Assembly: GCF_054482525.1 (NCBI RefSeq)
Contig: NZ_CM137006.1
Length of the DNA: 64,000 nucleotides
Direction: 5' to 3' (one strand)
Shown here piece after piece: positions 54,201 to 60,200 of this stretch. Within the stretch, counting starts at the first letter, position 1. Each line of letters starts with the position of its first letter. A program made the position numbers.

Positions 54201-57200
54201 TTAAACGTAGTCGAGCGTTTGGCGTAATAAGGGCCCATACAGCAGCAATAACGCCCAATATGGTAAGTAGACTTGATGTATCAATTTTGGTTGGCGGTGT
54301 CATAATTTCTCTTGTAATCATTGTTTGATGTACATCGGAATGGTTTCAAATGATAAGGCTCTGTGTATGATAAATCAGAACGTTATGCACGTTTAAGAAT
54401 ACCCTCAAAATGGCACATTTTAATCTAAAAATGGCATTAAATGGACACTACTTGTCCACACAAGTTTTTTTTCAGTCGGCTTTTCCCGACTAACGTTTGG
54501 GGTGTCCTATTGAAACTACGCTCCTTATAAAAGCAATACTGTAGCTGTATGTTTATCAAAGGGGTTGTGCTAACCAAATTACTGAAGCCTAAGGTCCGCT
54601 CTTGGCACAAAGCAGACTATGAGAAGAGAGATGCTATAACATTTGAGTCCTACCAATCGATCTGTTCATTTCTATGAATGGCAGTAAATGCAAATAACCA
54701 GAACAACCAAACGTTTTTCGACTTATACTCGATGTTGCAAAGAGTGGGGTGTGAAAAGCAAGCGTGCGAACGGAAGTAGATGGCAATTCATTGCATTACT
54801 TCAGAAAAACTTTTTCAGGAAACGAGCTAAGGGCGTCAACCAATGCCCTGTAGCATAAGCTCAGGCACCGGATGCCGTTTTACAGGCTTCACCTGCCATC
54901 CAGAAGATGTCCCGACCAACGACTGCAACCATAATTACGTTGACCTGAACCGTCATGCAGCTTCGTTTCATTTTTCACGAGATAACGGGCTCTCTCCAGG
55001 GCTTTCTGCATCGCTTCCACATCACCACGCTTGATCCAGAGAACAGCGGCTTCACCCGGCTTTTTGTCTGAAGCCTTCCAGGTATCAGGACATCCACCCG
55101 ACAAAGGCGTGTCATCGGAAGAAGGGCGAGCATCAGACGATGCTGGTTTACGGGAAGGCGTCCACCTGGAAAAATGGACCAGGCCATCGCCTTGCCAGGG
55201 CTCAAGATGCAGGGCGCTGCACCATGCCTCCTGGATCATCGTCGCCAGCGAAGACGATTCGCTGAAATCCCCGATCGAGCACCAGGTATCTTTGTTGAGC
55301 AGTAATATCACGTGATAATGTTTCCTGCCTTTTTCCTTGCCGAACTCCCGACACCAGAAATAACGCAGGCTGGTTGCATGCACACGCTGATTGGCACATC
55401 TTTTTTTCCGCTGGTAAGCCTGGATTTTGGCTTTCAGGGATTCGAAAAAACGAGAAATCACCGCTGAATCTAAATCGGTATCCATGATGGTGGCAGGCAT
55501 ATACTCAGGAAACCGTAAATCCACCCGGATTAACGAGACGGCACGGTGCTGCGCCAGGGCACTGTCGAGAAGGCTGTCAAAACGGGATAACCAGTAAGCA
55601 TTGTGTATTGGTTGGTTCATGATGAGAGAACTCCGTTGATTTGGATTGACTTCACATCATTCATCACCGCGGTAAAACTTTACCGCATCCCGCTATTTAG
55701 CAACATAACCTGCTCCTGACTGCAGCGAAATAAACCATCCCGGAACGAAAAGAAGAGCCTGCACGCAGAGGGAAAACACGCAACAACATGAACGAATTTA
55801 AAAACAATACGGTTAAAGAGAAAAACCTGAAGGGAAACAAATCCACAGGACATTCAAACAAAACACCAAAAACGCAATCAGAACGCTTTCTGGCGCTGTA
55901 AATCAACAACAACACCAAAACCTACAGCTTAACCATATAACTCAATCACAAATGCGAAATGGCACGCTTAAAACCTGGTTACAGATATCCCGCCACAAGA
56001 ACAAAAACCACCAATATCAGAATCGATGTTCTTATCCTGAAAACGTTACGTTTCACTCCGCGCCATAAAAACGATTAACCATCGATAACGTAAACCTCAT
56101 CTGAATCAAAACACCAGAACCAATCATCACGTTTTTTCTGAAAAGAGTCTCATGATGAAGAGAATTACCTTGCGCTGATAAAAAACACCAGGGCCAGTTA
56201 ATCATCTCATCAATCTCATCGTTACAAAAACATCCATAAAACCATTTAACCAAATCGTCGTAAGCACACAGTAAATCACGCCAGGCCACCTCAATCGGAT
56301 TTGCGTTTTTACATAAAGACACTTGTTTCAGATTAACGATCTAAAACACGAAAACTCAGAAAAGGTTAAACGTAACTTCAGCAAAATAGAATGCCATCTT
56401 GATTGCTTAAACAGGAAAGATTGTTTTGTGGCAGCATTAAACTGATTTTAATTTTCGTAAACACAGGAGTAACAATTTTACCAAACTGGATGTGTATCAG
56501 ACAAAGCAATGTGTATTGTAATGTTTAATGAAAACACTTTTAGAAGTGTTTATGAAAATACGTGTATGTTTAGTAAAACACTTAGTAAAATACGTATATA
56601 GTACCATTCCCGACATTCTCAACATCTTCAGACATCCATGCAGACTGAGTGTTGATTTCAGTTTTTCACGGCCAGCATGGATCTTTACTGGTCAAAAAAC
56701 AGACATGTTTACTCTGGAATTATTTTTCTGATTCCGTCTTCAGAACAACAAAAACTCGTGATAACTCTACAACAAACTATCGTAATTGGCTTCTGTAACC
56801 CCGTCACTTTTCCTAAGAAACGTGCCCCCATATGATGCGGGAGAGATAAGTCATCGTATACAGGAAACACTGCCAATCATAATATGACGTCATTCAGTAA
56901 TTTTTATCCATAATCAGATTAGCATATCATGATTATTGAATATTATGATATATAACCCATATGAATATGTTATTATCTGTAAGCGTTAAGCATCACATTG
57001 CATAACCATACTAAGCTGGCTAATCATCAGCATTTTTTACATGTAAATCATTGAAATTAATTATATGTTTTTTGTGGATAATTAATATGTAATGTGAAAT
57101 TAATATTTTTACATCATGAGCGCCATTTAAAATCACCATCCTGAATATCATATGACAATATATTTTCACTAAAGCATGAATTGTATATGTCTATTAACTC

Positions 57201-60200
57201 TGGAAAATTATCAGGATTCACCTTCAAATTCACTTGAATGTTACGCTTAATTTCACCCAGCAGTTCTTCATGTGTGGATTTTATTATCCCTTTCTCATAA
57301 TCGATAAATACACACATGTTCTTTATGAATTCAAAACCTTTTCCTGTATACAGTTTAATGAATGCCACCAGAGCAAACATTTCAAGATATAGCCATAATG
57401 CCACGTTAGTTTTTTGCAAAGTATAAAAAATTGAATTCGCCACTCTTTTACTTATTGCTCTTCTATACTGTGATCGGGCAAGATTCAGTAGCGGAAGCTC
57501 TCGTTCAATAAATGAATGTGAAAAGACTGGATAAATTGATGTCGGAAACCTTTCAGGTCTTATGATATTTTCTATTTCCACCATAAATCTATCCATAGAA
57601 AGAAAGTCACTTTCTTTTTTTATTCTGGTATAGAGACCGCCTTTATTCCTTTCTGAGGTTTGTTTTCGTGCTATCCCCCCCAACACTTTCTCTAATTGTT
57701 TATTTATCTTCGTATAATTAAATACAACCATTCTTCTTATCATCCTCGGAAGGATAATAATATCAGTGCTTGAATCACTTGAGCGGCAATTATTATTTAT
57801 CCATGCAACTTCAAGTTGCAGTATCGGAACATTAACTTTTCTGGGGTGAATATCTCTCTGATATCGTTTTTTGTATGCGTTTTCATTAAGATATTCTCTG
57901 CTGTAGAGAAACTTATAGCAATATAATCTGATAATATCTTTTATGTAAAATTTAAATAGTTCACCTGTAACAGATATATGTTTTCTGCTCAGTAACTCCT
58001 GTGTATTAAGCCATTCCCGTGACCGAAGCACACCCTTGTGAGAACTTTTTCTTACTTGCTTTGAAGCACGCCATTGATGTAATATTTTTGTGTCCTCAAT
58101 AATTCTCTTTCCCGTTTTATTTTTTGCAGCATCTCTTACTCTATAAAATATCTCCCAGTCCAGACTTTTGTCATATCTACTAATTATACGACAAATATTC
58201 CTGACCCGACGATTCTCTTTATTTCGCTTCCATAGCTTATAATGATCATCGCATAACCTTAAGGCATTTGCCTCATCAAATTCTGAAACAGGATTACTGC
58301 ATTTTTTATTCCGACAGATACCTTTGTTTTTAGCCATACTCTTCTTCCCGTCAATGGAAAATTTTTCACACCCATATTACCTGAATGATAAACCGGATTA
58401 GTGTGATCCGGTTCAGCGAAATCAACAGGATAACGGTATGTCATTCAGCCATTTTTCCCTCTCCGCACAAGTGAAATCATATCTGACGTTTCTTCCTGAA
58501 GAAATTCGCCAGAAAATCCTTGAACATCTCCACGGTGTTATTCATTACGAGCCCGTGATTGGCATTATGGGTAAATCCGGCACCGGCAAAAGCAGCCTGT
58601 GTAATGCCATTTTTCAGTCCCGTATCTGCGCCACGCATCCCCTGAACGGCTGCACCCGCCAGGCTCATCGTCTTACCCTGCAGCTCGGTGAACGCAGAAT
58701 GACGCTGGTCGATCTGCCCGGCATTGGTGAAACACCGCAGCATGATCAGGAATACCAGGCGCTTTATCGTCAGTTACTGCCGGAACTGGATCTGATTATC
58801 TGGATCCTGCGGAGTGATGAACGTGCGTATGCTGCCGATATTGCCATGCATCAGTTTTTACTGAATGAGGGCGCAGATCCCTCGCGCTTTTTGTTTGTTC
58901 TCAGCCATGCCGATCGCATGTTTCCTGCTGAAGAATGGAATGCCACAGAAAAATGCCCGTCCCGTCACCAGGAACTCTCACTGGCGACAGTAACAGCCCG
59001 GGTGGCCACCCTGTTCCCTTCATCATTTCCGGTACTCCCTGTAGCCGCGCCTGCAGGCTGGAACCTTCCAGCGCTGGTGTCACTGATGATCCACGCGCTG
59101 CCACCACAGGCAACCAGCGCAGTTTATTCACATATCCGGGGGGAAAACCGCTCTGAACAGGCCCGGAAACACGCACAACAGACTTTTGGTGATGCCATCG
59201 GGAAAAGTTTTGACGACGCCGTTGCCCGGTTCAGTTTTCCGGCCTGGATGTTACAGCTTCTGCGTAAAGCCCGGGACCGCATTATCCACCTGCTGATCAC
59301 ACTGTGGGAGCGTCTGTTCTGACACACTCACGCCGACAGGATGTGTCGCTGGATTAACGAGCATTCTTCTTTTTATGAAATCCTGCTTAAAAATCAGATA
59401 ATTAAAAGAATATTTTTTCTGCTGCATTTTATTCCTGATTATCCGGATGCGACACATCCTTTCAACATCATGATGCATAATAACATCATGAAATAAAAGA
59501 TGTTTTCTTACGGAGTGCACATCTATGTCTGATAATCGTTCCCGGCATGATCGCCTGGCGGTTCGCTTATCACTCATTATCAGCCGACTGATGGCCGGAG
59601 AATCTCTGTCACTAAAAACACTGTCAGATGAATTTGGCGTTACAGAACGTACTTTACAGCGCGATTTTCATCAGCGTCTGGTTCACCTGGATTTAGAGTA
59701 CAGAAATGGCAGGTACAGCCTCAGACGACAGAGCAGCCCGGGTGCGATCCCTGAAATGCTTTCTTTTATACAGAATACCGGTATCGCACGGATACTTCCG
59801 CTCCGGAACGGACGACTGATAACCTGTCTTACCGACAACCAGGAGCCCTCTCCCTGCCTTATCTGGCTACCGGCGCCGGATATCACTGCAACGTTCCCCG
59901 AGTATTTCTCGCAACTCATCCTGGCAATAAGACAGTGTAACCACATCTCTCTGATGACTGAGCGATGGTATCCGTCACTGGAGCCCTGCCGGCTCATTTA
60001 TTACAGCGGTAGCTGGTATCTGATCGCGTTACAGAAGGGAAAACTGCAGGTCTTTCCTCTGGCAGATATCAAATCAGTCAGCCTGACATCAGAACGGTTT
60101 GAACGGAGAGGCCACATCCACAGTCTGGTCGCTGAAGAGCGTTTTATCTCCGCCCTGCCACATTTCTCTTTCATCCATAAACTTATCAACACCTTTAACC

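What the first reader, a model, noticed from the sequence alone, without database searches (positions are those of the whole stretch)
55621..58337. AT-rich orphan 407-aa gene plus about 1.5 kb of ORF-poor sequence in the variable slot of a CP4-like prophage backbone
The interval between the YfjJ-like gene (54889-55620) and the YeeP/YfjP-like GTPase (58438) corresponds to the variable cargo slot of CP4-57-type elements, which in E. coli K-12 carries rnlAB and neighbouring genes. Here it holds a single long AT-rich ORF (57114-58337) with an N-terminal Cys/His cluster and no family I can recognise, preceded by 1.5 kb (55621-57113) with no ORF over 90 codons and an A/C-rich strand bias with loosely repeated CAAAACACCA-like motifs. 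This could be a single-gene defence or abortive-infection candidate, a degraded gene, or a non-coding RNA locus.
Basis: inference. Interest (0 to 1): 0.65.

Follow-up and report, generated by a model that had tools for sequence, protein, structure and literature searches.

The report
Hypervariable backbone gene plus neutral spacer
The 407-aa gene is real, but it is one of four very different versions of an unstudied protein that always sits at the same spot in this family of E. coli genomic islands, so it is not free cargo; the 1.5 kb beside it is gene-less DNA that drifts at about the neutral rate.

Summary
A 407-aa ORF lies at 57114-58337 (-), with 34% GC and an N-terminal C/C/C/H cluster. 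It is followed by 1,493 nt with no ORF over 89 codons and an A/C-rich block carrying AAAACACCA motifs.

The "variable cargo slot" reading is only partly right. In 50 of 50 related loci the gene next to the YfjP-type GTPase belongs to one protein family. That family has four allele classes (407, 376, 314-316 and 318-339 aa). They share 18-26% identity (55% between the two short classes), while the flanks are 90-97% identical in DNA. Homologues at 30-37% identity in Klebsiella and Citrobacter sit in the same place.

The family is strongly basic (pI 9.4-9.9). It evolves under purifying selection within alleles (dN/dS 0.15-0.3). It matches nothing in Pfam, NCBIfam, PADLOC, PDB, AFDB or BFVD outside its own members, and it is absent from phage and plasmid collections.

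The first 1.1 kb of the gap is island backbone, found in 1,877 of 5,426 complete E. coli genomes. It diverges at or above the synonymous rate of the neighbouring gene. It has no conserved ORF, no Rfam match and no conserved RNA structure.

My best guess, at low confidence, is a nucleic-acid-binding regulatory or specificity protein of the island's control region, swapped as a cassette. A defence role is neither supported nor excluded.

The parts
54889..55620 (-). YfjJ/Gp2-type gene (243 aa), Rep-like. It is context and the left anchor of the interval.
   Evidence: Pfam YagK_YfjJ_C E 1.2e-36 and REP_ORF2-G2P E 2.8e-7. RefSeq name 'inovirus Gp2 family protein'. The sequence shows HYHVILLL and RYLVK, which resemble HUH and YxxK motifs (this reading is inference).
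55621..55700 (-). Best-conserved part of the spacer. It lies immediately upstream of the Gp2 start and is presumably the 5' UTR and ribosome-binding site.
   Evidence: Mean pairwise identity 0.92-0.95 in 51 variants. GGAG lies 6-9 nt before the ATG on the - strand.
55701..56400 (.). A/C-rich block on the + strand (G/T-rich on the - strand) with AAAACACCA-like motifs. It is island backbone and non-coding.
   Evidence: Composition A 41, C 25, G 14, T 20%. The skew is kept in all variants. Motifs are listed. Stop-free stretches are compositional and the 89-aa ORF is kept in only 10-16% of variants. Positions 55796-56094 are replaced by other DNA in a common natural variant.
56401..56730 (.). AT-rich backbone segment. 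At about 56500-56620 it holds a variable-copy array of degenerate short repeats (TTAGTAAAAYAC / ACGTGTATA) and an 8-bp hairpin at 56530-56550.
   Evidence: The segment varies from 191 to 324 nt among variants through gain and loss of repeat units. Repeat families D6 and D18. Homology between allele classes ends sharply at about 56730.
56731..57113 (-). Allele-specific 3' flank of the 407-aa gene. It is AT-rich with no conserved element.
   Evidence: Unalignable between allele classes. Identity is 75-78% between diverged 407-class loci, about the synonymous level. There is only one weak terminator-like site on each strand.
57114..58337 (-). The 407-aa gene. It is one of four alleles of an uncharacterised, basic protein family carrying an N-terminal Zn-knuckle-like cluster.
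   Evidence: ORF. dN/dS about 0.3. AF2 pLDDT 79, pTM 0.68. No family or structural match outside its own family. Family alignments A1 and A3. Present in 975 of 5,426 complete E. coli genomes.
58338..58359 (-). Allele-specific 5' leader and ribosome-binding region of the 407-aa gene.
   Evidence: The alignment of intergenic regions from all allele classes diverges here.
58360..58437 (.). A 78-nt region conserved in all allele classes between the cassette and the GTPase start. It contains the inverted repeat AACCGGAT-N7-ATCCGGTT at 58391-58413.
   Evidence: Near-identical in 9 representatives of all classes. Sequence. The hairpin is predicted, though the whole-region z-score is only -1.8.
58438..59322 (+). 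YfjP/YeeP-type GTPase, first gene of the conserved rightward operon. It is context and the right anchor of the interval.
   Evidence: NCBIfam Era/Der-like matches below the curated cut-offs. Weak PADLOC LeoBC match, E 1.4e-7. DNA identity is 94-99% among loci that carry different cassette alleles.

Best explanation
The interval is part of the control region of a CP4-57-like genomic island. It is not a cargo slot.

**Shown.**
- The 407-aa gene is a real protein-coding gene.
- It is one of four deeply diverged alleles of an Enterobacterales-restricted, strongly basic protein family.
- The family always occupies the same position. It is the first gene leftward of a conserved 78-nt region shared with the divergent GTPase (or WYL) operon. 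It points towards the Rep-like YfjJ/Gp2 gene and alpA.
- The allele, its ribosome-binding region and about 0.4 kb of 3' flank (about 56731-58359) are exchanged as one cassette between conserved flanks.
- The remaining 1.1 kb (55621-56730) is backbone non-coding DNA evolving at about the neutral rate.

**Inferred, at low confidence.**
- The protein binds nucleic acid through a Zn-knuckle and a basic helical body. It acts as a regulatory or specificity factor of the island's divergent control region, and its diversity reflects selection for different specificities.
- The spacer serves as an untranslated leader or cis region for the Gp2 gene. Any constraint on it acts on length and strand composition rather than on sequence.
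For: **The gene is real.**
- Within-allele dN/dS is 0.28-0.34 for the 407 class and 0.11-0.23 for the 376 class.
- The AF2 model is confident (pLDDT 79).

**Positional family.**
- In 50 of 50 loci anchored on Gp2 and GTPase, a family member lies 62-184 nt from the GTPase start. It falls into four classes at 18-26% identity, or 55% between the two short classes.
- The flanking Gp2 and GTPase genes are 90-99% identical in DNA.
- Remote homology between the classes is shown.
- Loci found by protein look-up alone show the same divergent arrangement in Klebsiella, Citrobacter and E. coli.

**Cassette boundaries.**

**Protein properties.**
- pI is 9.4-9.9 in all classes.
- C8, C13, C29 and H32 are invariant in the long forms.
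- The invariant residues (W, P, Y, L, R, E, N, F) do not form a recognisable catalytic set.
- Cassettes of the two short classes lack the Zn-knuckle and carry an extra gene with an RHH-like C-terminus. That gene's Pfam match is weak (RepB-RCR_reg i-E 0.075), and the RHH reading comes from my inspection of the sequence.

**Spacer.**
- Pairwise identity is 0.81-0.86, against 0.90 at fourfold-degenerate sites of Gp2.
- No codon periodicity was detected, although the same test reached p=0.011 in only 2 of 6 windows of the Gp2 control gene, so it has little power.
- No ORF is conserved.
- There is no Rfam match.
- Consensus folding energy is about zero over most of the region.
- A 300-nt piece is replaceable in natural variants.
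Against: - No DNA-binding domain is recognised by Pfam. No operator has been identified.
- A conserved promoter region combined with 20%-identical proteins is awkward for a simple repressor model.
- The same allele can occur two to four times in one genome, so strict immunity-type or incompatibility-type exclusivity does not hold.
- No sigma-70-like promoter passed the scan in 58338-58437.
- No expression or binding data exist, and I found no paper on the protein.
- The near-constant length of the spacer (1052-1210 nt) and its conserved strand skew are not explained by pure neutrality.
Confidence: 0.4

Rival explanations
1. The 407-aa protein is a single-gene anti-phage defence or abortive-infection factor. 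Its allelic diversity would then reflect an arms race with phages.
For: - The island carries defence cargo nearby: dGTPase in the window, and a TIR protein, a restriction endonuclease and a nuclease in sister islands.
- Between-allele divergence is extreme between conserved flanks.
- The gene is AT-rich and looks horizontally acquired.
- The family is absent from phages and plasmids.
Against: - There is no match to 5,027 PADLOC models.
- There is no enzymatic or known effector domain and no conserved catalytic-type residues.
- Its fixed backbone position and 50 of 50 occupancy are unlike defence cargo, which shows presence/absence in hotspots.
Confidence: 0.2
2. The protein is a functional partner of the adjacent YfjP-type GTPase, for example a variable sensor or adaptor working with a conserved GTPase, forming a two-gene module.
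For: - The two genes are divergent and only about 100 nt apart in all E. coli, Klebsiella and Citrobacter loci examined.
- The GTPase has a weak match to LeoBC of the Eleos defence system.
Against: - In two loci from the species-representative scan the family gene is present without a GTPase. There it is divergent from the WYL gene instead.
- K-12 YfjP exists without the family.
- A GTPase that is 94-99% conserved in DNA paired with 20%-identical partners argues against a tight co-evolving interface.
Confidence: 0.12
3. The 1.1-kb spacer is the cis-acting replication or processing region (origin, iterons) for the Rep-like YfjJ/Gp2 protein. The analogy is the large intergenic region upstream of gene II in Ff phages.
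For: - Gp2 matches REP_ORF2-G2P and shows HUH-like and YxxK-like motifs.
- A variable-copy short-repeat array lies at 56500-56620.
- AAAACACCA copies are slightly better conserved than their flanks.
- A second, unrelated YfjJ paralogue also has 1.0-1.6 kb of gene-less DNA upstream.
- The strong strand skew is compatible with single-strand exposure.
Against: - Overall divergence is at or above the neutral rate.
- Part of the block is replaced in common variants.
- No conserved hairpin or nick-site candidate was found.
- Klebsiella relatives have only about 370 nt upstream of YfjJ.
- I know of no evidence that these islands replicate.
Confidence: 0.15
4. The ORF-poor 1.5 kb encodes a non-coding RNA, or is the remnant of a degraded gene.
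For: - A 1.5-kb gene-less stretch is unusual in E. coli.
- Its length is kept within 1052-1210 nt.
- The + strand would give an unstructured A/C-rich RNA with AAC repeats.
Against: - There is no Rfam match at E<=1 on either strand.
- Consensus folding energies are near zero and there is no structure signal over most of the region.
- Divergence is about neutral.
- Six-frame fragments match no PHROG family at E<0.08. They match nothing convincing in distant islands, where the best tblastn hits are E 0.010-0.016 over 21-23 residues.
- Indels are not in multiples of three.
- ORFs are not conserved.
Confidence: 0.08

Closest known systems
K-12 CP4-57 region between yfjJ and yfjP (abpAB, yfjM, rnlAB)
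   Same: It is the same broad island type. Both have a YfjJ-type gene, a YfjP-type GTPase, a WYL/HTH regulator, DUF932, and antirestriction, RadC and CbtA/CbeA modules.
   Different: K-12 has no homologue of the 407-aa family, no spacer and a different GTPase leader. Its yfjJ points the other way. In K-12 the interval really holds defence cargo. In this lineage the cargo lies on the far side of Gp2.
Stl master repressors of SaPI satellites, and the mosaic immunity regions of temperate phages
   Same: A highly divergent gene sits at a fixed position between conserved modules. It is transcribed divergently from a conserved operon and exchanged as a cassette.
   Different: The family has no HTH domain. 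It is 314-407 aa long. The same allele can be duplicated in one genome. No inducer or operator is known. The resemblance is positional only.
Zn-knuckle of HNH-endonuclease-type proteins (a name carried by some AFDB relatives)
   Same: The N-terminal Cx4Cx15Cx2H(Y) cluster resembles the metal-binding knuckle found in HNH-type proteins. This is my recollection, plus the AFDB names.
   Different: No Pfam HNH family matches even at E<=10. There is no conserved catalytic His-Asn-His. Two allele classes lack the cluster altogether.
Pseudomonas tmRNA genomic islands with intY, alpA, Gp2-like and RadC genes (PMC12595487)
   Same: They share a core gene set (integrase, AlpA, an inovirus Gp2-like protein, RadC, HTH proteins) and carry defence cargo. 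They are mobilised by phage transduction.
   Different: They are in a different genus. That paper does not report a homologue of the 407-aa family, and I did not compare sequences.
Ff-phage intergenic region upstream of gene II
   Same: It is a large non-coding region directly upstream of a G2P-type replication-initiator gene (from established knowledge; Gp2 domain match).
   Different: The Ff region is highly structured and conserved. This spacer is unstructured and diverges at about the neutral rate.

Membership tests
CP4-57-like island backbone | YfjJ/YagK-type gene, YfjP-type GTPase, WYL/HTH regulator and DUF932, followed by antirestriction, RadC and CbtA/CbeA genes | tested here: met
   Pfam match for Gp2. 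GTPase. WYL. The annotation of the identical region in UPEC 26-1 lists all of these modules.
Variable cargo slot (as in K-12 rnlAB/abpAB) | Unrelated genes, present or absent, occupy the position in different islands | tested here: not met
   50 of 50 anchored loci hold a member of one protein family. The same holds for the loci found by protein look-up. Unrelated cargo lies downstream of Gp2 instead.
Known anti-phage defence systems (PADLOC-DB 2.0) | Match to a model of a known or candidate defence protein | tested here: not met
   No families at E<=1 for the 407-aa protein.
Known anti-phage defence systems | Protection against phage when expressed | not testable with these tools
   Requires a phage challenge of cloned alleles.
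HNH endonuclease | HNH catalytic motif and a Pfam HNH-family match | tested here: not met
   No Pfam match at E<=10. The invariant columns lack an H-N-H triad. The name appears only on automatic AFDB entries.
Reverse transcriptase (UniRef name of Klebsiella homologue P0016) | RVT domain | tested here: not met
   No Pfam domain in any of the 16 family members scanned. The precomputed Pfam field is empty.
Rfam non-coding RNA families | Covariance-model match | tested here: not met
   No matches at E<=1 in 54500-59000 on either strand.
Structured non-coding RNA (any) | Conserved secondary structure across variants | tested here: not met
   Alifold on 12 diverse variants gives energies of 0 to -5 kcal/mol per 120 nt on the + strand over most of the block. 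Only small local hairpins appear.
Stl-like or immunity-type master regulator | Divergent orientation to a conserved operon, and hypervariability between related elements | tested here: met
Stl-like or immunity-type master regulator | A recognised DNA-binding domain (HTH) | tested here: not met
   No Pfam domain. The protein has only a Zn-knuckle-like cluster and a basic pI.
Stl-like or immunity-type master regulator | Co-resident elements carry different specificity types | tested here: not met
   The 407 allele occurs at up to 4 places per genome and the 376 allele at up to 2.
Stl-like or immunity-type master regulator | Represses island genes and is relieved by a phage or host signal | not testable with these tools
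   Requires genetics and transcript measurements.
Rolling-circle origin next to a Rep gene | Conserved hairpin or nick site and Rep-binding repeats | tested here: inconclusive
   A variable-copy repeat array is present. No conserved hairpin was found and divergence is about neutral.

The most novel reading that the evidence does not exclude
The family is a new-fold, island-encoded specificity switch. In this reading, four ancient alleles are kept by balancing selection. Each allele recognises a different phage or host signal, either to control the island's Rep/AlpA and GTPase/anti-restriction modules or to act directly against phage. The skewed spacer would be the cis region on which the HUH-type Gp2 protein acts after excision.
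Probability: 0.15. Interest if true: 0.7.

Novelty: new variant of a known kind. Interest (0 to 1): 0.42.

Why it matters
These islands are among the commonest accessory elements of pathogenic E. coli. The spacer is in 35% of complete genomes and the 407-aa allele is in 18%. They carry virulence, iron-uptake and anti-phage cargo, yet how they are regulated and moved is poorly understood.

A fixed-position gene with four alleles at about 20% identity, set between near-identical flanks, is the signature of a specificity determinant. Its function would probably say what these islands respond to.

Practically, the result redirects defence-hunting. In this lineage the cargo hotspot lies downstream of the Gp2 gene, not between Gp2 and the GTPase.

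Tried and rejected
- **Family searches on the 407-aa protein.** Pfam, NCBIfam, PADLOC, PHROGs and PDB sequence searches found nothing, both for the single protein and for the family profile.
- **Phage and plasmid collections.** tblastn found no homologue.
- **Degraded gene in the spacer.** Small ORFs match no PHROG family. No codon periodicity was detected, though the Gp2 control shows the test has low power. 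ORFs are not conserved. There is no convincing translated similarity to distant islands.
- **Non-coding RNA.** Rfam found nothing. The alifold scan was flat.
- **Strong constraint on the spacer.** Rejected, because its divergence is at or above that of fourfold-degenerate sites and the 3' flank sits at the synonymous level.
- **Strict allele exclusivity within a genome.** Rejected.
- **Obligate GTPase partnership.** Weakened by two loci that lack the GTPase.
- **Wider scans.** A 21-mer from the spacer found nothing in 100,044 species-representative genomes. The first profile scan failed for lack of conserved columns.
- **Literature.** Searches found no study of the protein.

Full report
**Source and observation**

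The window is a UPEC-type E. coli chromosome. Region 55400-58600 is 100% identical to strains UPEC 26-1, NU14-like genomes and others. The protein equals UniProt Q1R2M8 of UTI89.

- The 407-aa ORF lies at 57114-58337 on the - strand and is 34% GC.
- The YfjJ/Gp2-type gene lies at 54889-55620. It matches Pfam YagK_YfjJ_C at E 1e-36 and REP_ORF2-G2P at E 3e-7.
- The Era/Der-like GTPase starts at 58438.
- Between them are 1,493 nt whose longest ORF is 89 aa.
- Positions 55701-56400 are A 41, C 25, G 14, T 20%. This is the most strand-skewed 700 nt in the 64-kb window.
- AAAACACCA occurs three times exactly and three times with one mismatch, all on the + strand, between 55860 and 56351. Local enrichment is modest.

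**The 407-aa gene is real but unclassifiable**

It has no match in PADLOC, NCBIfam, Pfam, PHROGs or PDB sequences, either alone or as a family profile.

Some relatives carry the automatic names 'HNH endonuclease' or 'Reverse transcriptase'. No Pfam domain supports either name.

Within the 407 class, dN/dS is about 0.3 at dS 0.23. Within the 376 class it is 0.11-0.23. These are coding genes under purifying selection.

All classes are strongly basic, with pI 9.4-9.9. C8, C13, C29 and H32 are invariant in the long forms. The other invariant residues (W109, P197, R201, Y236, P282, L286, R293, E319, Y385, N386, F389) do not suggest an enzyme.

No homologue exists in 50,697 phage records or 72,556 plasmid records.

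**It is a positional family, not cargo**

Homologues at 30-37% identity in Klebsiella michiganensis, Citrobacter and unnamed enterobacteria lie about 100 nt from, and divergent to, a YfjP-type GTPase. AlpA and a YfjJ gene lie downstream.

In other E. coli islands the equivalent position holds proteins of 376 aa or 314-339 aa. Pairwise BLAST and a profile search show these to be remote homologues. Context look-ups of three such proteins again place them about 105 nt from the GTPase.

I collected 50 loci containing both anchors, from isolates and gut metagenomes. Every one has a family member next to the GTPase. They fall into four classes that share 18-26% identity, or 55% between the two short classes. 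The flanking Gp2 and GTPase genes are 90-99% identical in DNA.

The exchanged cassette has two boundaries. One lies about 78 nt upstream of the GTPase start, at about 58360. The other lies at about 56730.

The 78 conserved nucleotides contain a perfect 8-bp inverted repeat at 58391-58413.

Cassettes of the two short classes lack the Zn-knuckle. They add a convergent 269-289-aa gene whose C-terminus I read as ribbon-helix-helix. Its only Pfam support is a weak RepB-RCR_reg match at i-E 0.075.

Unrelated cargo lies on the other side of Gp2:
- In this window: a dGTPase defence gene and the fec operon.
- In sister islands: a TIR protein, a restriction endonuclease, an ATP-dependent nuclease and a TonB receptor.

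**Limits on two attractive models**

The GTPase is not an obligate partner. The only two hits in 100,044 species-representative genomes have the family gene divergent from the WYL regulator, with no GTPase.

Alleles are not mutually exclusive. The 407 allele is in 975 of 5,426 complete genomes at up to four places per genome. The 376 allele is in 463 genomes at up to two places.

**The 1.5-kb gap**

The first 1.1 kb (55621-56730) is backbone. It is present in 1,877 of 5,426 genomes at 76-100% identity with no annotated gene. It is absent from phages and nearly absent from plasmids.

I compared 51 distinct variants:
- Mean pairwise identity is 0.81-0.86, against 0.90 at fourfold-degenerate sites of the adjacent Gp2 gene. 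The block is therefore not under detectable sequence constraint overall.
- Only the 80 nt next to the Gp2 start and a few short blocks reach 0.92-0.96.
- No codon periodicity was detected. The test has low power, because the Gp2 control gene showed it in only 2 of 6 windows.
- The 89-aa ORF survives in only 10-16% of variants. The other stop-free stretches follow from the base composition.
- Indels are not in multiples of three.
- Six-frame fragments match no PHROG family and nothing convincing in distant islands.
- Rfam finds nothing.
- Consensus folding energy is near zero over most of the block.
- A common natural variant replaces 55796-56094 with 1.15 kb carrying a 176-aa gene.
- The allele-specific 3' flank (56731-57113) diverges at the synonymous level.

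Some features are not explained by pure drift:
- Length stays within 1052-1210 nt.
- The strand skew is kept in every variant.
- Positions 56500-56620 are a variable-copy array of short degenerate repeats.
- A second, unrelated YfjJ paralogue in sister genomes also has 1.0-1.6 kb of gene-less DNA upstream.

**Mechanism**

These points are shown:
- The family holds a fixed position.
- The alleles are exchanged as a cassette.
- Selection within alleles is purifying.
- The proteins are strongly basic.
- The long forms carry a conserved metal-binding-type cluster.
- The spacer diverges at about the neutral rate.

From these I infer, with confidence of about 0.3-0.4, that the protein binds nucleic acid and acts as a regulatory or specificity factor at the island's divergent control region. 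I infer that the spacer is an untranslated leader or cis region for the Rep-like Gp2 gene. Its C-poor sense strand would resist Rho, or the region may hold repeats bound by Gp2. Both ideas are untested.

The rivals are:
- A new single-gene defence factor (0.2).
- A GTPase partner (0.12).
- An origin region for Gp2 (0.15, not exclusive of the main model).
- A non-coding RNA or gene relic (0.08).

**Comparison with known systems**

The closest analogies are positional only. One is the hypervariable Stl repressors and immunity regions of satellites and phages; the HTH and exclusivity features of that group were tested and not met. Another is the Ff intergenic region upstream of gene II.

The element belongs to the CP4-57-like class. 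This class is also represented by recently described Pseudomonas islands with intY, alpA, Gp2-like and RadC genes that are moved by phage transduction (PMC12595487).

I found no publication on this protein.

**Verdict**

This is a widespread, uncharacterised, hypervariable backbone gene with no known fold relatives, next to a largely unconstrained spacer.

It is moderately interesting as a likely specificity determinant of a very common island type. No function is established.

Noticed in passing
window 52138-53127 (+), with IS1 at 53161-53858 and IS3 at 51142-52008: A dGTPase-type anti-phage defence gene (PADLOC PDLC02374, E 2e-92) sits in the cargo region downstream of Gp2. It abuts an IS1 copy and may be truncated, since the profile is covered only over 19-274 of 395. 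The fec iron-uptake operon lies further left.
   Followed up: partly
L002:3141-3845; L003:3063-3941; L010:2063-2941; L011:894-2684; L001:5938-10944: In sister islands the DNA just downstream of the Gp2 gene holds unrelated cargo: a TIR-domain protein, a restriction endonuclease, an ATP-dependent nuclease, or a TonB receptor with an ABC transporter. This side of Gp2 is the real variable hotspot.
   Followed up: partly
window 58391-58413: A perfect 8-bp inverted repeat (AACCGGAT-N7-ATCCGGTT) lies in the 78-nt region upstream of the GTPase start. That region is conserved across all four cassette classes. It could be an operator or a leader hairpin of the GTPase operon.
   Followed up: partly
L012:6942-7751 (-), and equivalents in L016, L020 and L022: Cassettes of the two short allele classes carry an extra convergent gene of 269-289 aa. 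Its stop overlaps the family gene, and its C-terminus looks like a ribbon-helix-helix DNA-binding motif. The only Pfam support is a weak RepB-RCR_reg match (i-E 0.075).
   Followed up: partly
L004:4176-5330 (variant of window 55796-56094): A common natural variant replaces 300 nt of the A/C-rich block with 1.15 kb carrying a 176-aa gene that has a weak HTH/D5-like PHROG match. This part of the spacer is therefore dispensable or is an insertion site.
   Followed up: partly
L001:3410-4435 and L002:1564-3140: A second, unrelated YagK/YfjJ paralogue in the same islands is also preceded by 1.0-1.6 kb of gene-less, AT-rich DNA with no sequence similarity to the window spacer. Long gene-less upstream regions may be a general trait of YfjJ-type genes.
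   Followed up: partly
window 56440-56660: A short-repeat array (units such as TTAGTAAAAYAC and ACGTGTATA, plus ACGTAAAGATTTACTAA in some strains) expands and contracts between strains. The segment ranges from 191 to 324 nt.
   Followed up: partly
L079 (CACSKA010000007.1, labelled Chryseobacterium sp. 18061): This contig carries an Enterobacteriaceae-type island with the same layout as L078 (Enterobacteriaceae bacterium RIT691). The assembly is probably contaminated or mislabelled.
   Followed up: no
L001:392-906; L022:7266-7514: The islands encode a small ProQ/FinO-domain RNA-binding protein near alpA. It is a pseudogene in UPEC 26-1. I did not examine it for any link to the long untranslated region.
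   Followed up: no
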